This document shows, one piece after another, positions 20,687 to 52,300 of a stretch of DNA of 64,000 nt. A program made the translations under genes and the position numbers. Within the stretch, counting starts at the first letter, position 1; the number at the start of each line of letters is the position of its first letter. The notes under the pieces were generated by a model that was not told the origin of the DNA, did not search any database, and saw only the letters and a list, made by a program, of their open reading frames with translations. Source of the stretch: Octopus vulgaris (lineage: Eukaryota); the NCBI GenBank assembly GCA_951406725.2, contig OX597820.1, positions 46,810,001 to 46,874,000 on the forward strand. Direction: 5' to 3'.

Positions 20687-20815
20687 TTTATTTTAAGCAG
20701 CAGAAAATTCAACAAAATCTGTTACTCTGAGTTTCTCGTTGCCGTTCATCAGACAACGGCAACGAGAAACTCAGAGTAACAGATTTTGTTGAATTTTCTG
20801 CTGCTTAAAATAAAG
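20686..20815. repeat. Perfect 61-bp inverted repeat with 8-nt loop
   Basis: 20686-20746 is the reverse complement of 20755-20815; loop catcagac. Confidence 0.92.
20719..20756 (-). ncRNA. Minimal hammerhead ribozyme
   Basis: UUGU-CUGAUGA-ACG GCAA CGA-GAAA-CUCAGAG-UA^-ACAG; A.A mismatch at 10.1/11.1. Confidence 0.68.
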
Positions 20816-34700: not shown

Positions 34701-37700
34701 AAGAAGAGGATTATTCTCAGTGGTAGTTATGATACAAGCATCCGGTAAGAAAATTCCTACATTTTAAAACACTTTTTTCTTCACAAAGAGCAGTATTTCT
34801 GATCCATTTTATCTTTGGACTCCTTCCTATTTTACTTCATCTAATGCTGAAAATATCCTGTTATATTTTTATAAGTACATATTATTAGGAATTGCATAAA
34901 AAATTGTTAAAATATTTGTGCATAATAGAAATATAACCAATTTATTGCACACTAGCACTATGACCTGGCAACACCGAGTCATAGTGCTAGTGCATGCATA
35001 TACAGCTGCGTGCGTGCACACATACACACGAGTACTGTCCAAATCTCTGACCAATCACATACAGCTTGGTGTATCAAGTTTCGGGCATTTTGATTGGGTT
35101 TTGGATAGAAAATTCACAAAAAAGTCACTTCTATTGATTTTCTAATGGCTTTGCTGGGTTACTGGAGAAATTTAAAGATGTGCACAACCACCCTTGGACG
35201 GTTTTGAATAACCATAGAAAGTGCGAGCCCTCTAACTGAAAAATTGTGTATTTGAATAAAGGATACACACACACACACCCACAGACATTTTGTCGTTTAT
35301 ATAGAGATAAGTTTTAACAACAAAATCTTATATGACCCCCAAGGGCAATATTGACCCTAGTTAAGAACCACTGAGATAGAGCAACAAATAAAGTGTCTTG
35401 TATTATTTAGCTATGTCTCTGTACATTTTGAGTTCAAATCTGCTGAAGCTGACTTCACTTTTTATTAATTTGGGTCAATAAAATGAGTACCAGTTATATA
35501 TCAGGGTCTATTTAGCCAACTGTGCTCCCTTGCCTCAAAATCTTTTCTACTCTAGGCACAAGGCCTGAAATTTTGGGGAGAGGGCCACTTGATTAGATTG
35601 ATCCCAGATCACAATTGGTACTTAATTTATCAACTCCGAAAGGATGAAAGGCAATGTCGACCTCAGCGGAATTTGAACTTAGAATATAAAATAATACATT
35701 ACAAACAAATGGAATTGAAATGACCAACCATATTTTCTGGCATGCTAGTCAAAATTTTCAAACTGAAATTTACAGCCAATAAAGGTAGTTGATTTATACA
35801 CCAAAAGGACTTTGGAGGACCAAAAATTCCATGTGAAATGCAGCAGGGTTTGCAAAGATAGTAATGATGTTTGAGCGTTTACGTTACATGTTTATGCTAT
35901 ATAATACATTGACTTGTATTCTGGAAAATATGGCATGTTAGTCAATAAAAAAGTTATGTTCACCCTCATATGATAAAAATATTATATGTGAGTTGAACCC
36001 AAAATAATGCAAAATTAGGCATAACATTTTTATTAACATAGGTAATTTAAATTGCATGTTAGTAGTGTACTTCTTCCTCTGTACAAAGTTACTTCTCATC
36101 AAAGTCTCCATTGTATTTGCACCATCATTGAACACAACTCCTGACTCCTCTTTGAAACAATTCAAGTGTACACTGTTCTACTCACTTCTTCACAGCCTCT
36201 TTCACCTCATCTATGTCATCAACTAATTGTTCCTGAAGACTGTCCTTCATTGAACCAATCAGCTTGAAGTCAGAGGGTGTCAGATCTGGGCTGTACAGAG
36301 GATGAAGAAATTTTGACAAGCCCCATTTGTTGTTTGATTTTTTGTCGAAGATGTTTATGGTTGCATACTGCCATGGTGAACGTGAATCATTTTTCAGGTT
36401 CTTGTTCAGTCTCATCCTCTTAGTGGTTTTGTCTAAGCTTTTTGAGTGTCTTAATGTACTGTTCACTGTTCCCTATACTGTTCACTATATTGTTCACTGT
36501 TCACAGTACAGTCATGTTCCAGAAAATAATGAGAATGATGTCCGTGACATTACATAAGAAAAACAGTTACTATGACTCTCTGTGCCAATCATTGACTTAT
36601 GTTTTGAAAAAGAAGTGACACCATTCTACCGACTGAACCTTTGATTCTAGGTCATAAAGATATGTCATCATTTGCTTCAAATGCTTCTAGCAGATTAGTG
36701 CAGACTCCTGACCCTCATCTTTGAATCAAGTGTCATCAGCTGAGGTACCCACTTTACACATGCTTTCCCTTATCCAAAGTCTTCCACTATTAAATTGAAA
36801 CCACAGTTCAGTTGGGCAGCAGGTTCATGGATTAAGATTTGTTTGTCTATGAGAATCACTCATTCATCCACTCACTGGCGTCTCATGTCAATGTTCACAA
36901 TTGATGACCTCCAACCACATAATTTTGTCTTCAATGCTGGTTTCCTCTTCTTTTATACTTCATCCATTTGAACATATTCATGGAAATGACACAGTGGTGT
37001 CATTTTCATGAACAACCTTCATCATCATCATCATCATTTAATGTCTGTTGTTCATGCTGGTATGGGTTGGACAGGTTGACCAAGGCTGGAAAGCTGAGGG
37101 GCTGCATCAGACTCCAGTCTGATTAGGCATGATTTCTACAGCTGGATGCCCTTCCGAATGCCACCTACTCCAAAAATGTAATGGGTGCTTTTACATACGA
37201 CCAACAGGAGTGCTAGTTGTGTTACACCAGTATCTGCATGCCGAGGGTCTCAATCATTTGTCATTGCCTCCGTGAGGCCCAATGCTTGAAGGGTGCTTTT
37301 TGTGTGCCACTGGCACAGGTACCAGTTACGCAACACCAACATTGGGTACATTGCCCAATGCTCGAATGGTGCTCTCACAGAGGTGGAAAAAGTGGAGAGA
37401 GTAGAAAAAGAAACAAGAAAACAGAGTGTAGAAAGGAAGGAGAAGTGTGAAAAATAAATGAAGGCTAACAACAAAAGTGGGTGATTAAAGGTTAGCAGGG
37501 GAATGAATGGAAGAAGAGATAAAATGTCAAAGCCACTAATATACTCACTGTATCCATCAAAACTTGTACCCCTCTTTCATGAAGAATTCAAAGATGGTAT
37601 GTTGTTTTTGTTTGGAATCAATTATTTGCCTGTAATAAAGAACAAGAATTACCAGAGAGAAAAAGTTACTCTACTAGCATGTGCAATTTGTATGACTTGA

Positions 37701-39155
37701 GTCAGTTAATAAAGAAGCTTATCAAGCTTTCAATGATGAATCTGCATTAAGTATGAGACACTGATTGCTATTTTATACAAACAAATGACTGTATGACATT
37801 TAGTTCCGTAATCTACATTTCTACTACATAATGTCCTCTGTTTATGATGATTAATTAAGTATTGGGTTATAATAAATGAGAATTAATTCATTCACTCACT
37901 GGCAATTCATGTCAGTGTTCATAGTTGATGGCCTCCAAATAGATAATTTGTCTTCAATGCTGGTTTCCTCTTCTTTACACTTTTTCGTCCATTTGAACAC
38001 ATTGCTCTTATTAATGGTGTCATTTCCATGAACAACCTGTAGCCATCACAACCTGTACCCCTCTTTCATGAAGGATTCAAAGATGGTATGTCACTTTTGC
38101 TTGGAATCAATTATTTGCTGTAATAAAGAACAAGAAGAATTACCATAGTGAAAAAATTTCTCTACCAGCAGGTGAAATTTGTATGACCTGTGTCAGTTAT
38201 TAACGAATTTATACCACTTTTGCATTACTATTGATATAATCTTCAAATTATATCTGTTGTACATTGGGTTGTAATGAACTGAACATGGCCAAATCAAATC
38301 AGTTTGTATGGGAATGTGGCTAAGTAAAAGAGAAAACTGATGCTTGAATATTTACAAAATAAATTTTTCAGATGTAGTTAAAATTACATAAGTAAATATC
38401 CAGACCACACACATACACATACAGATAAGTACGGATCTAGATTAACTACACACACACACACGCATATGCGCTCACACATTCCACTAAACAGACGCACACT
38501 CACCTGCATACATACACTCATAAAAAGGTACATATCTAGATTAACTAGTCACATATACAAGCATACATATATCTCAGGGTTGTATATGTGCAAACAAATG
38601 AACACACTCACATGCACACATACACACACACACATGCATACATACACTTATAAGTAAGTGCATATCTATATTAAATATTCACACATAAAAGCACACATCC
38701 ATATGTATAAAGTACATATGTGTACACAACACCCACCCACCCATACACACTCACTTATACACACACACACACACACACACATACACACGCACACACACAC
38801 ACAGTTGCATATACACAATATTGGTTTCTACTTTCTGACTTACAGATGCTGGTCAATAGACAGTGGTCGTTGTCAGAAGATATACCGTGGTCATCGAAGC
38901 ACAGTCTTATGTGTTCGTCTTTTCAAAGATGCTGTAGTATCTGGGTCAAAGGATGCCTCCTGTAGATGTGAGTTACCATCTTTAATTCACTCTAAAACTT
39001 ATCTCTCTATTTTTAACTCATTGTTCTCCTTTATTTCTCCTTTATTCCCATTGTGTTCTTCATTGGAGGGTCTTCCATTAGGTTCATCATTGGAGGGTTC
39101 CAAAGAATGCTGGGAGTAGCCTCCAAGGCCTTCTGATAATGTATTGCAGCCAATT

Positions 39156-39214
<59 letters not shown>

Positions 39215-42200
39215 GGAGGGAGGTACTGCTAATAACATTAATCAATGGAATCACAAACATCAAGAAATATTTTTTGGTATTTGTATGTACTCTTGTTCAA
39301 TGGCTGCCCTATATTTGTCAACTGTTGCCAGTTTTGTACCACTAATTTTATATTAAAAGCCTAATGGTGTGAGGTCTGGTGAATGCAGAGGGTATTCTAG
39401 TGAACCTCTTTGTCCAGTCCACTTGTTCAGCAAAATCTCATCAAACTAAGCCCTTACATTAGTTATGGTTGAATGCCCCCCCCCCCCATCTTGCTGAAAA
39501 TGAAAGTTCACATCTCCAAAGCCTTCATGAATGCTTTATATAATACATTGTTGCAGCAAGTCCAAGCAACCAGAACCAGGCACTGTACCATAAAAAAAAA
39601 TTGTTCAGTTAATCTTTTTGATTATAATTCACACCAAACTGTAACTCCTGGTAAATTAACATGATGTTTCTCCATAAAATGTGGATTCTTATATGCCCTA
39701 TGTGTACAATTGTGGTGATTAATTGAACCATTTAATTTAAATGTAACCTCATCACTCCAAACAATCTTTGTGGACAGTGTACATCTAATTATCCTACCAA
39801 TACCACTCACAAAACCCACTCTTTGGCTTATCTTCATGGAGAGCATGGACTATTCTAGGAAAGTAACTTTTCTAATGACAGTGCTCCAAAATGTGATTTG
39901 ACTCTTGATTTTCAAATTCTTGTTTCATACATTGCCCCTTACATAACATGGAGTTCATTAAAAAATTAAACATGTACTTATACAAGGAAAAGTATACTGT
40001 GACTGGTCCCAAAAGTTGATGGAATATGGCTTGGACAGAACTTTTTAACTACATACTGATCTCAGAGAGGGGAACCAAGTAACCAGTTCCATTTTAGAAG
40101 TCAAAACAAAAACTGAAATCATTATTTATTTCGTAGACTTGGAATATCTGTTACAGCAGCCTTCAATATTTTTCAGTATGACCATGTAGATAGGGAAAGG
40201 TAAGATATCAAACAACTAGCTAGAGGAGTTTGCAGTTAGTATCCTGCCACTCAGCACTTCATTGTTTACTTAAAACACTTATTCTACTGAAACACATGTG
40301 GCAAGTGTCTAGTTATAGACTGGTAACATATCTAGAAAGAGATTATTTTCTCTTATTCACTTAATACATTGTTTTGCTCTGGGATGCTAATTCCTGGTGA
40401 AGTTATAAGGCAAGGCCGGATTAAGACCCATAAAAGCCTTTAGCGCTTAAAAGATTTTGGTGCCCTCCATAAAAGATTATGTTATTCAAAATATAAATAA
40501 TAAAACCATAAAATAAATTATTTTTTAAAATGAAACAAAAGAAAATTTAAGATGGAAAATAATACTTATTTTTGTACACTTTCACTTTATTTATATTTGA
40601 AAAGTTTTCTACTTTTTTTTAAATTGTGAAATCTTTGATCAGATCATCACTATGACATCATGAACACTTTGAAATTATATTTCCAAGTATATACGCTACT
40701 CTGAGTATTATTTTTGCAAGTTTAAAGTGATTTTTTTTTTCTGTGTTGTAAATTATTTATCAGTTACCATTTCTGTGGTTCCCCCTTCACTTGATGCCCT
40801 AGGCATGTGCTTATTTTGCTTAATGGTTAATCCTGCACTGTTGTAGGGTCACTGTTGTGACAAACATGTCTTGAAAATTTACACCTGGTGGAGTCCATTC
40901 CTCTTCAAATTCAGGGACGGTCATTTCTCTAAGAAAAAGGTAAAAAATGACAGAAAAAAAAAGATGTAACAATCAATAGATTTCAATACTAGACATGTAC
41001 TTTAGTTAGCAGCCCTGAAAGGATGAATAATAAAGTTCACCTTGGTGGTATTTGAACTCAAAGTGCCAAACTGGATCAAATACCACGAAGCCTTTTATCC
41101 AATGCTCTAATACTTCTACTAATTTGTTGCCTCAGCACAAAAGGAACTGGAGATAAATTACAATCCTATGCACAGAGAAAGTCTGTGAAAGTAAATCTGT
41201 ACAATTTTTATGACCCTCTAAACATTGTAGACTTTCTCTTGGATATTATGTTTCGACAATGCATCAAATCTCAAATCTTTCAATCTTCTTGTCATTAAGT
41301 GTGGGACCTGAACACTGGTAAATGTCTGAAGGTTATGCGTCATTTGAAAGCAGTGAGGTCAGTGGCAATATCTGGAGAACTCGTTATCAGTGGATGTGAT
41401 GAGGGTGAAGTGAAGGTTTGGCACCGTGGCACTGGACAAATGGTTAAGGTAACAGCTAACTTAAGCTTATTTCATTCTTTTTTCCCCACTCCAAATGTTG
41501 CCCTATGATTGATTAGTTTTTGCTTCTCGATTGATTTATTATATCCCCCACAACACCTGCTGCTCCTCCACTTCCTCTCACATTCACATTCTTTCCATAT
41601 TTTTAACTTCTTTCGTGTTTTTATCTTCCTTTTTCCTTATTCCAGCTCTCTCTCTCTCTTTCTCTCCTTCTTCCTCCCTCCCTCTCACCATCCTCTCTCT
41701 CTTCATGTATGATAATGAAATTAATTGTATACAGTGCTCAGGTGCACCACAACTTGTCAGAAAGTGCATATAAAGTACATGCAGTAATGTAGAAATGTCT
41801 GGAAAGCGAACAATGTATGAGTCAGATACATGCTTGTGTGTGTATGGAGGGGAGAAAATCAAGTGTAGTGTTGGCGAATCTCAGGAAGCATGGAAGTTTT
41901 GAAGGATGCAGTGCTCCGACAACTAACAACTGATGCCGGCAGTTTGTTCCATGCTTCAGCAATTCTCAGCGTGAAAAAATGTTTTCCCTGAAGTCATGGG
42001 AGCTGTGCTGTTTTCTTACTTTGTAAATATGTCCACGGGTGTTAGATGGGTGGAGTTTGAAAAGGTGCTCAGAGTTATTGTTTGTACGATGGTTGATAAT
42101 TTTATGGGTGTCTGCCAAGTCAGCTGCCAGACGTCGGAGTTTCAATGTGTCCATGCCCAGGGAAGTAAGGCGTTCAGGATATCAATAGATGCATTGAACA

Positions 42201-45200
42201 CCAGGTGATGTAATTTAAATCTTCTGCTGCTGCTGTGACATGTGCTTTAGTATGATGTTTAAATCTACCCTCATCACATTCCCTACTAATTTTAACACTA
42301 AGATCACACAAACCTCAGGCTTAGTTTCTCAGACACTTGTGTGACAGCAAAAAGCCTCCTTTTCATGATTCATTTTTTTAGTGACCAAAAGAGCAAGTGA
42401 CAGAGTTTTTATGGCATAAACACACCAGCATCAGTTGTGAAGTGATGTTGGGGACACACACATACACACACACACACGAACATATACACACACATGCATA
42501 TATATATATATATATATGACGGGCTTCTTTCAATTTCCATCTACCAAATCCACTCAGAAAGCTCTGGTTGGCCCGCGGCTATAGCAGAAGACACTTCCCA
42601 AGTTGCCCAGAACCATGTGGTTGGTAAGCAAGCTACTTACCACACAGCCACTCCTGCACCTATGATGAACTCGTTGATATGACTGGTGTGTCCTGAAGCT
42701 CCTATCAACGAATTTTGAGTGAGAAAGTGCAAATGAAAAAATTTGCAGCAAAATTTGTACCTTGCTTCCTCATGGAAGATCAAAAGCTGTCATGAACAGA
42801 TGGAAGTTGATCTGGATATTTTTTCAAAGGTCATCACTAGTGACAAAAGCTGGTGCTATGGAATTTGCAGATGTGGAAGAGGTGAAGAAAAATAATGACA
42901 GAGGTGTTAAAAAGCATCACTTCACAAGAGTTCCAGCACTGCTTCCAACAGTGGAAAACATACCTGGACTGATGCATTGCTTTAAATGGGGAATATTTTG
43001 AAGGTGATAAAAGTGTAAACATGTGAATAAAATGATATTGCAAAATTCCACTTTCTTTTTGGTACCCCATCATATGTAGCAGATAAATTTCTTTCAACAA
43101 AGTTCCCATTGTCTTTAAAATGGGAACCAGTAAACTAGTGAGGGAGCTTCTTCCTTGATAGTTAACCCTACTCGATATCACAGCTAAATTCTCTTCTGCA
43201 AATTCTTAACATTCTTGAAATGGTAATCATATTAGCCAGTGAACAAGCTTCCATATATTTCTTTGATTTGCTCAATATCTGGACCAGGAAATCTCTATGG
43301 AAAGGGAGCCAAACTTTTCCAGGAATGCTTACTATTACTGTATTTTCTGGCATACAAATAGAATTTTTCAAACCAAAATTTACAGTCCAATGTAACTAAG
43401 TCAAATCTGGAGGGCCAAAAATTCCATGTGAAATGCAGCAGGATTTGGAAAAATAGTGATGATGATTGAATGTTTACACTACATGTTTACACTATATGCT
43501 ACATCCACTATATAGTACAATGTAGTGTATTGTATATTCTATAATGTACAATGTACAGTATCGTATTTTCTGACATATGTTGACTTGTATGCCAGAAAAC
43601 ACTGTATGCTTTAAATAGGAACTATTTGATTCACTGAGGGAATATCCATGCAGTCACTTAGTCCAGTGCTACTCAAAGTGGTACTCGATGGACCAGTGCT
43701 GGTCCACGAGTCATCAGCTGCCGGTACATGGCGAGTTTCCAGAAAAGAAAGAAGCAGTAGAATAATTTTAGTAATTTCGCCTTATCCACTGCAATAAACA
43801 ACTTGATAGATCGCCAGCCACTACACATTCTTTATTTTCTCTCCTTGTATCTTTCTGTGTTCCTTTCTGTGGAAGAGCGTAGGCTCAAAATGTTAATGAC
43901 TTTTTCACTTCCCAAGCATTATACTAATACATCTGTTTGTTGTCTACACCACCTGTCTTCGTCTTTTGTTTTTTTCTGAATTCTCCCCGTAATATAGTAT
44001 AATTTGTTTACAAAATAAATATAAGATAAAAAAAATTGTCAACTTTTATTATTTTCATTATATATATCGTTTCCAGTATAAATTAATAATACTAAGAAAT
44101 ATTATTGGTCCCTGGCACATGGGAAAAAAAAAATTGCCAGTACGCCACATTAGATAGTTTGAGAAGCACTGACTTAATAAAACAGTTAAAGTTTCCTAAT
44201 AGAAAACTCTTTCTTGTTTTTAAAATAAGGATTACCAGCAAGAATTTTTTTGTAACATAGCTTGACTTTTACAATACAGTAGCTATATTGTTCTCAACAA
44301 TTTCCTTTCTTTGCACATATTTATTGTAAAGCAGGAACCACAGAAATTTGTTTACACAATGAATTTGTTCAAATTTTGTCTCAAAACTGTCATTAAAATA
44401 GGGGGCAGGGCACATGTAATTAGATGATTATCAAACATAGTATTGTTGGAGATGTTCCAAGATGATGGAGAGTAAAAAGGGACTGAACCAGGTTTTCAAA
44501 TATCTACTTTTGTGAGAAACAGATATTAACTATACTAAAGAAAGCAACCATATGCAAGTATGATTTATATCAAAATACATTTTTAATTAGTTTATGTCTG
44601 TTTTCCCAGAATAACATTGTATGGGTTGGATTTTGTATATCATTGAAGCCATTTTTCTCATAGCTCTGTGGCAGGGACATCCTGCCCGGGTAGGCGAGGT
44701 AGGTAGTGCCTACCCTGAATAAAATAGATCGATAGTAGCATTTTCCTTTTATGGCAAAATATGCACCTAATTCAATAAAATTATGAATGTTACTCTGATT
44801 ACTATGCATAAAATGTATTTTTTAGTAGAGTAGGTAGGCATAATTCACCCCTGCCTTTCAATTTCAGTATTAATACTATGTATAATACTGCTGTGGTACA
44901 CATGCTGTGTACATTCCTTCAACAACATTTTCTTTACGTGCTATAAAGGCAGAAGTAATTCTGCCTCCAACTCAGTTGCATGCCTGTGTTTTGCTTATTT
45001 TTTGTGTGTTTTACTACATAAACATTACCAACTGCCTACCCTGAGTAATTATTGACACTATGTGCTTGCCCTGTGGTCTTTCTACCACTAACAATGTTTT
45101 TTTCGCGTTCTCTTTAAACTTGTTTTTTTTTTTACCACAGAAATTAAAGGGTCACTCAAGTTCAATAATGTGTCTTAAATTTGACCGCTGGCATATTGTA

Positions 45201-46928
45201 AGTGGGGATAAAGATGGTTATGCCATGGCCTGGAGTTCCCAAGGTAATCATAGCCGCTGTCTGAGTGTTTTCAAACATCCAAAGTAAGATCCGATTTCAT
45301 TGGTAAATTTCTTTTGTAGTTGAGGTATTGTAAAAGAAAAAAAAATTGTACCTACATATATAAATGCAGAAATTCACATACATACATACATACAACCATA
45401 CATACATACACACATACATACATACATACAACCATACATACATACATACATACATACATACATACATACATACATACCTATCTGCATGCATGCATGCATA
45501 CATACATACATACATAAACCATACATACATATCTGCATGCATACACACATGCATACATACATACATACATACATACATACATACATACATACGTACGTGC
45601 GTGCATACATACATACATACATACATACATACATACATACAAACATGCATACAATATACATACATAGATACACAGATACATACATGCAATATACATAAAT
45701 ATATACAATATATATACATGGAGACACACATACAACATACATACATACATACATATATACATACATACACATACACATACATACATATGTACATACAGCA
45801 TGGCTGTGTGGTTAAGAAGTTTACTTCGTTGCCCTTGTTGCTTTGGGTTCAATTCCACAGTAAAATTTGATAAACAGAAACTGTACAGAAGTCTATCATG
45901 TATATATATATGTGTCTATGTAGATCATATATGTATGTCTGTGTGCATGTGTGTATATGAATGTGTTTACATTTCTTTGAGTGAGTGTGTGCACATGTGT
46001 GTGTGTGGGTGTTGATGTGTTTTTTGTTCTGATTAATAATTATTTGTGATGCATATTTGCCAATTAAATATGGCTAACCCTTAAGGGTGGATGCTACTGT
46101 AGTTTGTAGGTCCAGGAGGACACCTCCTCCAGTTGGCTTTAGACACACTTTCTGTGCCCTATCAGTATTTGCAAAGGGAAGCCATCCTTCCCGTCTTCAA
46201 CTTATGATACACACGGACTCGAGTTTCTGGGTATTGACCCGTCATTGGTGTGTGACAATCACAGTTGTCGATGAGAAGTAGGTTCCCTTCACAAACACTT
46301 ATACTTTTTCCACATCGACAACTGTGATTGTCACATGCTGATGACGGGTCAATACCCAGAAACTCGAGTCTGTGTGTATCATAAGTTGAAGACGGGAAGG
46401 ATGGCTTCCCTTTGCAAATACTGATAGAGCACAGAAAGTGTGTCTAAAGCCAGCTGGTGGAGGTGTCCTCCTGGGGCTACAAACTACAGTAGCATCCACC
46501 CTTAGGGGTTAGCCATATTTAAATGGCAAATATACGTCACAGTGTGTTGCAGCTACTGTTTATAACTCGCTCTAAGATTTATTATTGAATAATTATTTAT
46601 TGTAAGAAAATGCCATTTACTGAACTCAGTTTTCTAAAACCTAATAATCATTGCTTTATATTTATTTCAGGGAAGTGTGGTGTATTGAGCTTGCATTTCT
46701 GAGAGTTGTTACTGGATCTGATGATGGTAGGATCCGAATATGGAATTTGATAACTGGCCAGTGTTGCCGAATTATGAGAGGTAACAGCCAGAGTGATCCA
46801 ATACTGCATCTATTCCCTGTTGCAAATAGGTGAGAAGATTAACGCCAATTTTCTGTAAATTGTTCAAACAATCATGTAACCTGGTCATCATTATCACAAT
46901 TAGTATTATTATTATTATTATTATATTA

Positions 46929-46965
<37 letters not shown>

Positions 46966-49301
46966 TCGTTTAGCGTCCGCTTTCCATGCTGGCATGGGTT
47001 GGACGGTTCAACTGGGGTCTGTGAAGCCAGAAGGCTGCACCAGGCCCAGTCTGATCTGGCAATGTTTCTACGGCTGGATGCCCTTCCTAACGCCAACCAC
47101 TCCATGAGTGTAGTGGGTGCTTTTTACGTGCCAGACGAGGCTGGCAAATGGCCACGATCAGATGGTTCTTTTTATGTACCACCGGCACGGAAGCCAGGTG
47201 AGGCTGGCAATGGCCACGATCGGATGGTGCTTTTTACATGCTACTGGCACGGAGGCCACTCGGGGTGGCGCTGGCAATGGCCACGTTTCGATGGTTCTCT
47301 TATGTGTCACCGGCACTGGTATCACAGCTACGATTTCCATTGATGTTGATCGATTTTGATTTTGATTTTCACTTGCCTCAACAGGTTTTCACAAGTAGAG
47401 TTTTGTGTCCCAAGAAGGAAAGGTATGCATAAGTGGACTGAGGCCACGGGTTACGGCCTCACTTGTCCTGATGGGTCTTTTCACGCACAGCATACTTCCA
47501 AAGGTCTCGGTCTCTAGTCATTTCCTCAGTGAGACCTAAAGTTCAAAGGTCGTGCTTCATTATTATTGTTATTATTATTATTATCTCTATCATCCTCGCC
47601 ACCACCTTTTCTCTTTAAACCTTTGTATTCTATGTATGTGTCCCTTCTTTTTTAGTGTATACCGTGTATACTTTCTTTTTTTATCATTTCATTATATGCA
47701 AGCCCCAACACTTTGTGTCTGTCTTTGTACTGTCCCTCTTTCTCTCATCCTTCACCCTTGTGGTAAATAAATGAAATCATCATCATTATTATTATTATTA
47801 TAGACATCACACAGTATACAATATTGTGAGGTTGTTGATTGAAGATATTGTGTCTACTGGAGGTTTGTACTGTTTGTCAAATCACAACAAGGACCTCAGA
47901 CAAACAGTACTTTATGCAATATGCATGCAGTTCCAAGTAATGCTGACTTTTGCAATACACCTAGATTGTAGTGTATTTCTAAAGTTTTCAGCTGTTTTTT
48001 CAGATTGGGTGGTATTGAACTCGATACTCCGATGATAATAGGTATAACCTTTATGTTTGACTCTCATATCTGCCACATCTTAGCAATCTCAGTTCTCAGG
48101 TCTCCATATTTATCAACTTTTTCTCTTTCTTTCATGATGATATGTTGAACTCTGGGCACTGCCACATCGACTATCAGGCACTCTTGTTTGTCCTACCTAT
48201 AGGTTACTATATCTGGCCTTTGGTGCGCTAATACTTAGTCTGTCTGAAAGTCAAAGTCCCAGGGGATTTTTGCCTTTCTCTTTTTGTCCATTACCTTTTC
48301 CGGTGTATGTTGGTACCAAGCACCTATAACATTATATCCATACTTAGGGCATAGTAGCCAGTGGAGGTTTTGGGCTACTGTGTCATGTCTATGTTTGTAC
48401 TCTTTCTGCTCAAGACTTTCACAAGCACTGACAAGGTGAGTCATGCTTCTGACCCTCTTCCCACACATTCTGCAGAGGTCCGTTGCACTTGTATAGTATA
48501 TATTCGTTTTCACTAAGTTGGTATTCAGTGGTCCTGAGCAACAATGATTAAGCTTTCAGTATTCTTTTTTAGGTCACTCCATGATGCCTCTTGGCCTTTT
48601 AATTTGTTGGTTTCATGGTGGAACTGACCATATTATTCCATGTGGAGTAAGGTTTCTTCTCTCTCGTTTGGTGTTCTTGATCACAATTCACAAGCACTCT
48701 CAAGTCATTTTTGTTAAATCCTTCTGCATTAGCAGTATACTGTAGCAGGTTTTGTTTGCTGTTTACCAAATATTCTGTTATGTTTCTTCTTTCACTGTTG
48801 ATGCACTCTTGTACACTAATCAGCCCATGTCCACCTTTACTACTCTTCATGTAGAGCCTGTGTACATTCACCTTAGGGTGGAGGGCAGCATACATTGTCA
48901 TTGTCTTTTGAGTAGTGTGATTGAGTTGGTTAATCTCGCTTGTGTCCATTTCAAGATGGGTGCACTATAGTAGACTACAGCAACTGCTCATATGTTGATG
49001 GCAGTCACAAGGTTCTTTTAGTTGAGTTTTGATTTCAAGAGAAGTTTAAGGTACTTGAAACATGCAGTGATGATCTTGTCTTTCATTTCTTTATGCAAGA
49101 TATTGTCCAGCTCCAGGATCTCAAGGTACTTGTACCCATTATCATCCGAGTCTTTCATTCTCTCTTCATTTGGCAATTCTATGCCTCTACAATTTGCTCT
49201 TTTCCCTCACTTCATAGTAAGCACCGAACACTTTGAGACACCGAATTCCATCCCTATATCCATGCTGCACATTTGCACAGTCTCAACTAGCCTCTCCATT
49301 C

Positions 49302-49346
<45 letters not shown>

Positions 49347-52300
49347 CATTATTATTAAAGTAGCAGGCTGGCAGAATTGTTAGCACACCAGACAAAAAGC
49401 TTAGCAGCATTTCGTCGGTTTTTATATTCCAAGTTCAAATTCTGCTGAGGTCGACCTTGCTTCCATCTTTTTTGAGGTTGATAAAACAAGTACCAGCCAA
49501 GCACTGGGCTTGATGTAATCGACTTACCTGCTCCTCTAAAAATATTGGACTTGTGCCAAAATTTGAAATCTTTATTATTGTTATTATAACTAAGGCAGTG
49601 AGCTGGTAGAATTGTTAGCATGCCGGGCAAAATGTTCAGCAGTATTTCATCTGTTGCTACATTCTGAGTTCAAATTCCACCGAGGTTGACTTCGCCTCTC
49701 ATCCTTTGGGTGGGGGTTTAAAATAAGTACCAGTTATGTGCTGGAGTTAATTTAATCGACTAGCTCCCTTCTCACCAAAATTTTCAAGGCCTTGTGCCTA
49801 GAGTAGAAATAATTCTGAATTCAAATTCCACTGAAGTCGACTTTACCTTGCATTCTTTCAGGGTTGATAAATTAAGTACCAGTGAAGCACTGGGGATGAT
49901 GTAATTGACTAGTCTCCTCCTCCAAAATTTCAAGTCTAATGGCTATAGTAGAAAGGATTATTATTATTATAACTATTATATATATGCTATAGCAGTAAGC
50001 AAGGATGTTGTTTTGAGGTTTGGAGGCAACAAATCTCCTCAAATCTCAAGACATTTTCTGATGATACCTTCAGAATACAGAATTACACTTTTCTGCATAT
50101 TTGACAATGTGTTTCTCAGCCTTTTAAATAGCAGTTTGAGTGTTGTGTCAAGTGTACCAATTACCATAAGAATAATTGTCATCTTAGCCTTCCATAATTT
50201 TTTAAACTCCTGATATTGCTCAATTTTTTCTATATCCATTCCATTACCATATGACCTTACACTGTTTGTTTCTTTCGTCCTCTATAATCATATCCAGTCT
50301 TCTTGCTTCAATATGGTCAATCTTTATAGGGAAATCGTATATAGTCTTGTAACTTTTATTCATAGCCTCTGTTTCTAGTTCATACCACTTTTCTGTTACT
50401 CTGAATCTACACATTTCGCTAACATCCTAATGCACTTTTCACTTATATAGTCATACCTGCTCTTAAACTTTTTCCATGATAGCTTACTAAATTCAATCGA
50501 GATATGGTTAATACTTTCATCTCCTCTCCCACAGATTCTGCATTTGCTCTTCAACTGAATTTTATTAAACTTTGCCTTTATTAAATTCATTCTAATGGCT
50601 TGTTCCCGAGTGGCTGTAATAAGTGCTTCAGTTTCTTGTTTCAGGTTTCTACCCATCAGCCACAACCAGCCTTCTTTACTTACAACATTGTTGGTTTGTT
50701 GCATGAATTGGTCACATAATTTGCTTCTTGTGGAAGGCATGCATGCATTTCACTGGCTGGGTGGTCTGCTGTGAGCACTCCCTGTATAGAAAGCTGTGCT
50801 GAGATTGCACCATCTACAGAGATTCCAGGATAGTGAGCAGGTGTAGTCACCCTTTATCAAGCATATTTTCTCCACAGTTCATCTCTTTTGTGGAGATCCA
50901 GTACTAAGTCTAGTGAAAACCAAGACTGGATGGCTTTTGTCATGACTGGAATTTTGTCATTTGTTCACAACCCTCTACTAGTTAGGTAATATACCTAGTG
51001 AAACTGCTACATTAGCATTCTATGGAGAGCTATAAATGGGAAAGAGTGCAAACATTCTTGGTGAATCAACTGGCTGGTCTGTTCTGGGTGACTTTCAGGT
51101 TGGGTACTATGAGGTACAATGGATAACTTCCAAAAATCCTCTTAAGAAATATTGAATAGACACTGTCATATATTGCTTTTATTTTTCTTTATTATTTTCA
51201 GACTTACCGTAAATACCCACACTAAAATATTGACATTGATATTTGAAGAAATAGAATGGAACTATGACCTAGAGAATGACAGTTTACCCCCACTGACTCA
51301 GTACACTGGCTCAAGTCACCACTCTAGAAATGAGAAGTGGCAATATTTAAATTGGTCAGAGAACAGAATAGGCAGTGATAGCTTTTCAAATAGTAATCTT
51401 TCAAAATCTTTCTCCTTGCTTGGACAAAAAAGCAACTCTCAAATACAAAGAATGAGCATATCAGAAGATAGTAAGAGTTTTCAACTCAACCGTAAAGTTA
51501 AAAGTTTTAGAACAAACCATTTGGCAATATCTAAATACAATTTGAAGAATCGATTGAGCCACTCAGCTCAAAGTGATTATGGATCAAAAGACAAAATGGC
51601 TCACTCTTCACAAAACTGTCAAAGGACCTCAAGCAAGTTGAAGAAGAAAGATGCCACCTGGCAGCAGAAATCTAAAAGTGAGAGTGACATGAAAACAGAT
51701 TCTGTCAAAAAGTCTGCAGTAATTTCAAATAATGTTTCCCAAATTGATCAAAATGGTGAGAATCTAAAATCTGATGAAGAAACTGATCAGGAGTTAACTT
51801 TGGTGCGTAGATTATCCTGGTCGTTTGATCCCCCTAAGATTGTTGAGTCCAAAGAAGTTACTTTGCTAGAAACTAAAAGCTTGCTGAGGTCCCAAATTCG
51901 TAGTAAAACTAAAGTAAAAATTCCAGAGTTTATCCGTTTAACAAGACAAGCTTACCAGCAGCAAAGTAAACTTACAGATGTGACACCTTCAAAAACACAC
52001 CGGTCTTTCTCTTCTCCAGGGAAAATTGACCCAAGGACAAGAATTTCTCTCGACCAAGTATTCCTATCCCAATTGAAGGACTGTGGTTCTTCCAATGAAA
52101 ATAAAGAAAACAATGATGATGATCCAAAAGGTAAGACAGAAGCTAGAATTATGACAAAGACAACAGTACTGACCAAGTTTGTCACAAAATACACCAAAAC
52201 CAAGGCAAAATTTGAAATGCAATCACCAAAAGTAAAGTCTACCATTCCAAGAGGTTGGACCACAAGTCCTGCACCAACTTGGTTTCTACTGGAACAAGAT

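What the first reader, a model, noticed from the sequence alone, without database searches (positions are those of the whole stretch)
46045..46541. Sense-strand hammerhead caged in a hairpin of about 240 bp just upstream of exon 8
Seen: the right arm has an intact CUGAUGA/GAAA/GUC core in pre-mRNA orientation, 300 nt before the 3' splice site. The left arm is transcribed first and is its antisense, and its own minus-strand core is mutated (CCAAUGA). The hairpin ends 129 nt before the exon. Inference: the duplex should block ribozyme folding and so tolerate the insertion, and is an ideal ADAR substrate. Editing could loosen the duplex or alter the core, giving a possible editing-gated self-cleavage switch or an editing inducer for exon 8. 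Caveats: C.A mismatch at 10.1/11.1 and a probable need for dimerisation.
Basis: partly seen in the sequence, partly recalled or inferred. Interest (0 to 1): 0.75.

Follow-up and report, generated by a model that had tools for sequence, protein, structure and literature searches.

The report
Fold-back copy of octopus ribozyme repeat
This long hairpin in an intron of an octopus gene is two head-to-head pieces of an abundant mobile repeat that carries a hammerhead ribozyme motif; about half of the insertions sampled have the same fold-back shape, so it is most likely an ordinary by-product of how the repeat inserts and not an RNA-editing switch.

Summary
In detail: 229-bp arms, a hammerhead core on the host gene's sense strand, and a cut site 300 nt before the exon. 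The interpretation mostly does not. The arms are pieces of a 352-353-nt non-coding repeat with hundreds to thousands of copies and tandem arrays, i.e. a non-LTR retrozyme. The insertion (46046-46587) has an 11-bp target-site duplication, a head-to-head inverted copy and a 46-nt tail at one end, the known Penelope-like (PLE) pattern. 33 of 62 sampled insertions are head-to-head and 13 of 62 cage a whole hammerhead, so caging is generic. The core has a C.A mismatch at 10.1/11.1, a subfamily trait, and a 2-bp helix III. The arms differ by 6% and are not homogenised. In a folding model, editing cannot open the cage before it hits the catalytic adenosines. Exon 8 appears spliced, with no variant letters, in contigs of runs guessed to be RNA. 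The duplex is probably hyper-edited, but this was not testable. The mobilising PLE was not identified. The scan noted the same kind of element before on other DNA (e1-9582922, e1-9211780). New member of a known kind.

The parts
46035..46045 (.). Left target-site duplication, 11 bp, AT-rich
   Evidence: Identical 11-mer on both sides at offset 0
46046..46312 (-). Inverted, 5'-truncated copy of the repeat (unit positions 256-352 + 1-170); includes the 39-nt hairpin loop; ends at the family's 'short' end
   Evidence: blastn of a natural unit (L040) on the window, 91-92%
46205..46261 (-). Hammerhead motif of the left copy, core CCAAUGA (decayed), antisense to the pre-mRNA
46313..46587 (+). Direct, 5'-truncated copy (unit about 295-352 + 1-217), less than one unit long; ends at the family's 'tailed' end
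   Evidence: blastn 93-96%
46325..46381 (+). Type I hammerhead motif: stem I 46332-37/46371-76, core 46338-44, stem II 46345-58 with C.A at 10.1/11.1, 2-bp helix III with palindromic loop, predicted cut 46370/46371
46542..46587 (+). 46-nt tail present on one end only (PLE-type signature)
   Evidence: Family 3' ends fall at unit 164-175 (50 of 95) or 207-219 (31 of 95)
46588..46598 (.). Right target-site duplication
46671..46829 (+). Downstream coding exon (WD40 repeat) of the CDRT1/FBXW10-like host gene
   Evidence: Homologues named for O. sinensis and O. vulgaris; tblastn; contigs of runs X8 and X9 match exactly 46671-46829 with 0 other letters

Best explanation
The hairpin is one insertion of a 352-353-nt non-coding hammerhead repeat (a non-LTR retrozyme), made of two head-to-head truncated copies between 11-bp target-site duplications, likely laid down by the reverse transcriptase/endonuclease of a Penelope-like element and now likely decaying neutrally in the intron. 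Shown: repeat family, tandem arrays, duplication, head-to-head geometry, one-sided tail, 6% arm divergence. Inferred: tandem or circular retrozyme RNA is reverse-transcribed from a nick in AT-rich DNA at one of two fixed start points about 45 nt apart; a second truncated copy is joined in inverted orientation, which gives the foldback. In the pre-mRNA the antisense arm is made first and is predicted to pair with the sense arm as it emerges, so the hammerhead, already weak (C.A at 10.1/11.1, 2-bp helix III, no tandem partner), would not fold. ADAR probably hyper-edits the duplex without releasing it, and the intron is spliced out.
For: Family: 3147 first-look candidates, 40 scored, the other top loci 96-98% identical to the right arm; 170 exact tandem-spaced matches against 0 for the reversed control; 227 subfamily-B and 470 subfamily-A core patterns, controls 0. 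Geometry: 33 of 62 independent insertions head-to-head, 0 tail-to-tail; 24 of the 33 have one short and one tailed end, none has two ends of the same class, 9 have an off-class end (chance for 24 of 24 about 1.5e-8). This matches the PLE structure described in PMC8557442 and PMC3846280 (passages) and the internal RT initiation that explains tails (PMC11167929). Caging is generic: 13 of 62; 4 of 88 B loci and 14 of 58 A loci among the first 100 listed matches each. No homogenisation: at non-CpG columns the right arm differs from its own partner at 8 of 203 sites and from 21 other copies at 3-7. Folding and editing models. Exon 8 spliced with 0 other letters in contigs of 3 of 4 runs guessed to be RNA.
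Against: Of 11 transitions between the arms, 9 give G.U pairs on the transcribed sense and 2 give mismatches (one-sided p 0.033, two-sided 0.065); this is what selection for the duplex would give, though strand-biased mutation in a transcribed gene would too (recalled). The insertion seems shared by two other DNA samples labelled as two organisms (contigs run 27 and 29 letters into the tail, under the tool's 31-letter bar), so it is not shown to be private. No autonomous PLE with matching DNA was found in two families examined. Rfam does not recognise the motif, and the five-sequence pair count does not beat its shuffles (covariation 120 of 500). No raw RNA reads were available, so editing and cleavage were not observed.
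Confidence: 0.88

Rival explanations
1. Editing-gated self-cleavage switch: ADAR editing loosens the duplex, the right-arm hammerhead folds and cuts the pre-mRNA 300 nt before exon 8.
For: Core nucleotides match the consensus on the sense strand; octopus has very strong hyper-editing, and palindromic repeats are heavily edited in frog (PMC5625713, passages); G.U skew 9 of 11.
Against: At 50% editing with inosine modelled as unpairable the foldback is still 115 kcal/mol more stable, and the five core As survive in 3% of molecules; even at 100% it is 27 kcal/mol more stable. The right arm alone does not form stem I or helix III (pair probabilities 0.0 and 0.001 in the 275-nt arm). C.A at 10.1/11.1 fails the filter used by Perreault et al. 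(PMC3088659, passages). The same cage occurs in 13 of 62 insertions.
Confidence: 0.02
2. Editing inducer element: the long stem recruits ADAR and raises site-selective editing in exon 8 or alters its splicing; the ribozyme plays no part.
For: Long stem 129 nt from the exon; mammalian precedent (PMC5654063, abstract only).
Against: The model needs a second, shorter target duplex; the exon and its flanks fold no better than shuffles (z 0.20, 58 of 100) and the exon pairs with the insertion little better than shuffled exons (-90.2 against -83.6 +/- 4.0). Contigs over the exon show 0 other letters in 3 runs, but contigs drop rare variants, so low-level editing is not excluded.
Confidence: 0.06
3. 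The two arms are independent insertions, or a DNA-level foldback element (MITE-like) with terminal inverted repeats.
For: Arms differ by 6%; long inverted arms resemble foldback DNA elements.
Against: One 11-bp duplication brackets both copies; they abut with no spacer; the inversion point varies between insertions while the outer ends are fixed; tandem arrays exist; arms of young subfamily-A insertions differ by 0-3.3%, 12 of 13 by under 1.5%.
Confidence: 0.02

Closest known systems
Metazoan non-LTR retrozymes (Cervera & de la Pena 2020, PMC7229834; mussel 350-390 bp, axolotl Rtz_353)
   Same: Non-coding tandem unit of 352-353 nt, GC 43-46%, one type I hammerhead per unit with a short palindromic helix III, target-site duplication longer than 4 bp, PLEs in the same genome; a mismatch at the base of helix II also occurs in axolotl HHR_Amex2 (U.U).
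   Different: Cephalopod family, not mentioned in that paper's main text ('cephalopod' 0, 'inverted' 0). This copy is under one unit per strand and head-to-head. Subfamily B has C.A at 10.1/11.1 and often C at position 4. Cleavage and circles not shown here.
Insertions of endonuclease-positive Penelope-like elements (Craig et al. 2021, PMC8557442; Arkhipova et al. 2013, PMC3846280; PMC11167929)
   Same: Partial tandems, inverted 5'-truncated copy joined head-to-head, tail at one end only, 8-13-bp duplications, AT-rich or (TA)n targets.
   Different: No RT/GIY-YIG ORF; tail about 45 nt against 30-40 described; canonical-type rather than minimal hammerhead; no DNA homology to the two autonomous Neptune-type families examined.
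Retrozymes as non-autonomous PLE derivatives (Li, Clavereau, Pollet 2026, 10.64898/2026.07.22.740005)
   Same: Solo and tandem copies, intronic copies common (about 42-44% in Xenopus), most tested elements inactive in vitro (8 of 9).
   Different: Their evidence is co-occurrence and pLTR homology in vertebrates, with no molluscs sampled; here the link rests on insertion geometry, and no pLTR homology was found.
Editing inducer elements (Daniel et al. 2017, PMC5654063) and self-folding edited repeats (frog Harbinger, PMC5625713)
   Same: Long intronic stem near an exon; a self-contained duplex that needs no neighbouring repeat.
   Different: No target duplex, edited site or conservation shown; resembles the bulk hyper-edited repeats more than an inducer.

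Membership tests
Metazoan non-LTR retrozyme | Tandem repeats with a unit of about 150-450 bp | tested here: met
   170 matches at 352-353-nt spacing, control 0; array of 9 cores at G000:C2:14.09 Mb
Metazoan non-LTR retrozyme | Type I hammerhead in each unit | tested here: met
   Subfamily A canonical with G10.1-C11.1; subfamily B variant; one compensatory change in stem II among 5 rows, not above shuffles
Metazoan non-LTR retrozyme | Non-coding, GC below 50%, duplication longer than 4 bp | tested here: met
   GC 0.43 and 0.46; longest stop-to-stop frame lying within the element 93 aa; 11-bp duplication. PBS and PPT were not looked for.
Metazoan non-LTR retrozyme | Self-cleavage and accumulation as circular RNA | not testable with these tools
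   Only assembled contigs were available; circular folds -123 and -125 kcal/mol against -82 and -92 for mononucleotide shuffles are predictions
Active retrozyme copy (criterion of Li et al. 2026) | [quoted passage not shown] | tested here: not met
   This insertion has under one unit per strand
PLE-type insertion | Inverted 5'-truncated copy joined head-to-head | tested here: met
   This locus; 33 of 62 insertions, 0 tail-to-tail
PLE-type insertion | Tail at one end only | tested here: met
   46-nt tail here; 24 of 33 head-to-head insertions have one short and one tailed end, none has two alike
PLE-type insertion | Duplication of about 8-13 bp, or AT-rich/(TA)n target | tested here: met
   11 bp here at offset 0; 14 of 62 have non-microsatellite duplications of 8-13 bp (offsets up to 7 allowed, no chance control); most subfamily-A copies sit in (TA)n
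Autonomous PLE | RT + GIY-YIG ORF | tested here: not met
   No ORF in the unit; four loci with widely spaced copies held no intact PLE ORF between them
Non-autonomous derivative of a named PLE | Sequence shared with the pLTR of an autonomous PLE | tested here: inconclusive
   No match to 4 full-length copies of a 781-aa Neptune-type family or to the 3' part of a second family; only 30 of 150 listed GIY-YIG loci examined
Canonical type I hammerhead (right arm) | Core C3-A9, G12-A14, A15.1-U16.1, H17 | tested here: met
Canonical type I hammerhead (right arm) | Paired 10.1-11.1 and a fold that forms as a monomer | tested here: not met
   C.A mismatch; helix III pair probability 0.0-0.01; no Rfam hit
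Editing inducer element | Adjacent short duplex with an efficiently edited site; conserved stem | tested here: inconclusive
   No structure above shuffles; no variant letters in contigs, which drop rare variants; conservation unresolved

The most novel reading that the evidence does not exclude
The octopus retrozyme family gives direct structural evidence that protein-less retrozymes are copied by Neptune-type PLE enzymes (same ~43-45-nt tail, same (TA)n targets, one apparent retrozyme-PLE chimera at L159), and subfamily B spread with a crippled catalytic half (C.A at 10.1/11.1, often U4C) because its unchanged substrate half can be cut in trans by canonical-core relatives through the shared palindromic helix III: a ribozyme-borrowing parasite of a parasite. 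The intronic copy would then be protected from such trans cleavage only by its foldback.
Probability: 0.1. Interest if true: 0.6.

Novelty: new member of a known kind. Interest (0 to 1): 0.25.

Why it matters
For this locus, little: it is one of at least some 75 such caged copies (estimate scaled from the first 100 listed matches per subfamily). For the family, moderately: the papers read argue from co-occurrence and pLTR homology that PLEs mobilise animal retrozymes, and the one-sided tail with head-to-head inversion is an independent, mechanism-level sign of that in a cephalopod. The young, intact subfamily A and intact 781-aa Neptune-type ORFs in the same genome make the pairing testable in vitro. 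Such foldbacks are also a likely source of intronic double-stranded RNA in an animal with very high editing.

Tried and rejected
Rfam scans: no hammerhead hit; only microRNA-like hairpin matches below their gathering scores. No RNA holder listed on record; the runs used as RNA are guesses. No cover of the unique intron flank in the 4 runs guessed to be RNA, so pre-mRNA of this locus was not seen. Empty-site allele: no such joint among the 15 joints shown, 41 not shown, and the left flank was masked as repeat; organisms C and D did not cover the flank, so presence in other octopods is open. A-to-G rows over the arms come from other genomic copies (they also appear in DNA runs) and say nothing on editing. 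Search for the autonomous partner: GIY-YIG scan, 30 loci and 4 full copies, four widely spaced pairs, a second PLE family: no shared DNA. The idea that the right arm's CUGAUGA is a chance CpG reversion from CCGAUGA is plausible but not settled. For: 16 of its 21 nearest copies have CCG, the left arm's CCA is one step from CCG, and the site decays like neighbouring CpGs. Against: CUG is the majority state in subfamily B as a whole (58 of 88 loci), the tree groups the right arm with four CUG copies (89/90), most forks are weak, and those copies were picked by similarity to the right arm. Literature: 'hammerhead ribozyme' + 'octopus' gave 5 papers, none describing this family by its listing; searches for inverted retrozyme insertions and for a natural editing-gated intronic hammerhead listed no such report. 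Repbase and Dfam could not be searched, and supplements were not read, so the family may already be catalogued there.

Full report
1. Observation. The hairpin is real: arms 46045-46273 and 46313-46541, 229 nt, 94% complementary, folding at -436.8 kcal/mol, z -45.5. The 14 differences between the arms are listed. The right arm carries a type I hammerhead motif on the + strand with the cut at 46370/46371; the left arm's minus-strand core reads CCAAUGA. The host gene is CDRT1/FBXW10-like, on the + strand, 98-100% identical over most exons to proteins named for Octopus sinensis and O. vulgaris. The next exon is 46671-46829, the eighth mapped in the window. Rfam does not recognise the motif.

2. 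What it is. The arm is a piece of a repeat: 3147 first-look candidates, of which 40 were scored and the other top loci are 96-98% identical. The repeat has a 352-353-nt unit and forms tandem arrays (170 matches, reversed control 0). Each unit has one hammerhead. Subfamily A (470 core-pattern matches) has a canonical core with G10.1-C11.1 and is young: arms of its inverted insertions differ by 0-3.3%. Subfamily B (227 matches), to which this copy belongs, has C.A at 10.1/11.1, C or U at position 4, and arm divergence of 0-16%. Stem I and the palindromic helix III are the same in both. Unit size, GC content (43-46%), lack of an ORF and long duplications fit the metazoan non-LTR retrozymes of PMC7229834 (read: parts 2-3 of 6 and passages).

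3. Anatomy of this insertion. An 11-bp duplication (46035-45 and 46588-98) brackets 542 bp: an inverted copy 46046-46312 and a direct copy 46313-46587, joined 5' end to 5' end. The loop belongs to the inverted copy. The direct copy extends 46 nt further at its 3' end. I merged 105 loci into 62 independent insertions (sampled by similarity to the arm, by tandem pattern and by core patterns, so not a random sample). 33 of 62 are head-to-head and none tail-to-tail. 81 of 95 element 3' ends fall in two classes about 45 nt apart. 24 of the 33 have one end of each class, none has two alike, and 9 have an off-class end. This is the structure described for endonuclease-positive PLEs: an inverted 5'-truncated copy, a tail at one end only and microsatellite or AT-rich targets (PMC8557442 and PMC3846280, passages; PMC11167929, passages and first half of the main text). 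Hammerheads on opposite strands 100-700 bp apart were already noted in PMC4209133 (read: parts 1-2 of 4).

4. The cage is generic. Any head-to-head insertion whose arms both span the core puts an antisense arm ahead of a sense hammerhead, in either direction of transcription. 13 of 62 insertions do so. Among the first 100 listed matches of each subfamily, 4 of 88 B loci and 14 of 58 A loci have both cores, which scales to about 9 and 66 in the genome.

5. Could it work as a switch? In the full insertion all hammerhead pairs have probability 0.0; in the isolated 275-nt arm stem I and helix III still do not form. A 2-bp helix III normally needs a dimer (PMC4209133), and there is no tandem partner here. 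A mismatch at 10.1/11.1 disqualifies a hit in PMC3088659 (passages), although U.U and U4C variants are reported to retain some activity. Modelling inosine as G or as unpairable, the foldback stays 206 or 115 kcal/mol below the separated arms at 50% editing, while the five core adenosines are all unedited in 3% of molecules (an equilibrium model with random sites, without proteins). So editing should destroy the core before it frees it. For an editing inducer (PMC5654063, abstract only) a target duplex is needed; none stands out.

6. Selection or decay? The right arm is closer to 21 other copies (3-7 differences in 203 non-CpG columns) than to its own partner (8), so the arms are not homogenised. 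The differences around the core sit at CpGs. One result points the other way: 9 of 11 transitions keep G.U pairing on the transcribed sense (p 0.033 one-sided); other long subfamily-B foldbacks are near even. Strand-biased mutation in transcribed genes (recalled) would also explain it. Whether the right arm's CUGAUGA is a reversion from CCGAUGA is unsettled (see Tried and rejected).

7. Reads. Only contigs were available. In 2 of 4 runs laid first (X1, X2; labelled as two organisms) a contig runs from the exon 27-29 letters into the tail with no difference, which suggests the filled allele but is under the tool's 31-letter bar; all four organisms' runs hold the repeat family. In 3 of 4 runs guessed to be RNA, contigs cover exon 8 with 0 other letters, two of them exactly from 46671 to 46829. 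This fits normal splicing; it cannot exclude low-level editing, and those individuals' genotype is unknown.

8. The partner. The genome holds Neptune-type PLEs (label from the CxxxxCxxC motif ahead of GIY-YIG, as described in PMC8557442), including intact 781-aa ORFs. Neither that family nor a second one shares DNA with the retrozyme. The second has two 3' ends about 43 nt apart and (TA)n targets, and one locus joins a subfamily-A copy directly to its RT and EN fragments (L159). This is a lead only, since both elements target (TA)n. The 2026 preprint (read: parts 1-3 of 5; supplements closed) argues for PLE origin from co-occurrence and pLTR homology and leaves the mechanism open.

9. Verdict. 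An aged, non-autonomous retrozyme insertion with PLE-type geometry; probably hyper-edited, probably neutral (0.88). Editing-gated cleavage 0.02, editing inducer 0.06. New member of a known kind. My reading was entered before I saw the scan's earlier notes, which describe the same kind of element on other DNA; they are not independent support. Interest 0.25.

Noticed in passing
L159:1326-3100 (G000:C1:71844625-71846400): Composite insertion in (TA)n: 1.5 units of subfamily A plus a 32-nt inverted piece, joined without a TA run to a Neptune-type PLE RT fragment and, inverted, its EN and 3' region; possible template-switch chimera. The PLE 3' end is 26 nt shorter than the family's usual end.
   Followed up: partly
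L124:10-300, L144-L158: Second repeat family, 362-nt unit, 65% like unit B over 144 nt, 2746 first-look candidates, with tandem and head-to-head copies and two end positions about 60 nt apart; its hammerhead core UUGAUAA is the U3-A8 covariant described in PMC4209133.
   Followed up: partly
L054-L062 (G000:C2:14086400-14089550): Array of about 9 near-identical subfamily-B units, all with CCGAUGA and C.A at 10.1/11.1: recent amplification of a doubly non-canonical hammerhead.
   Followed up: partly
L027:1465-2081: Third variant with U.U at 10.1/11.1 and a different loop II.
   Followed up: no
L136-L139: Young Neptune-type PLE, about 4.8 kb, with an upstream ORF region, an intact 781-aa RT-EN frame, tandem repeats in the 3' region, (TA)n at the end and no canonical hammerhead found by pattern.
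   Followed up: partly
window 34745-46671: The O. vulgaris protein record P0002 joins the exon ending at 34745 directly to the exon at 46671 and omits three WD40 exons that P0001 and P0003 include: a gene-model error or an isoform.
   Followed up: no
window 48235-50780: Decayed non-LTR retrotransposon fragments on the minus strand in the next intron (RT-like and 'HRHD' zinc-finger-like peptides; label recalled).
   Followed up: no
window 20715-20785: Short palindromic stretch with a CUGAUGA...GAAA pattern on the minus strand; similar letters occur in L110, so it may be another repeat family.
   Followed up: no
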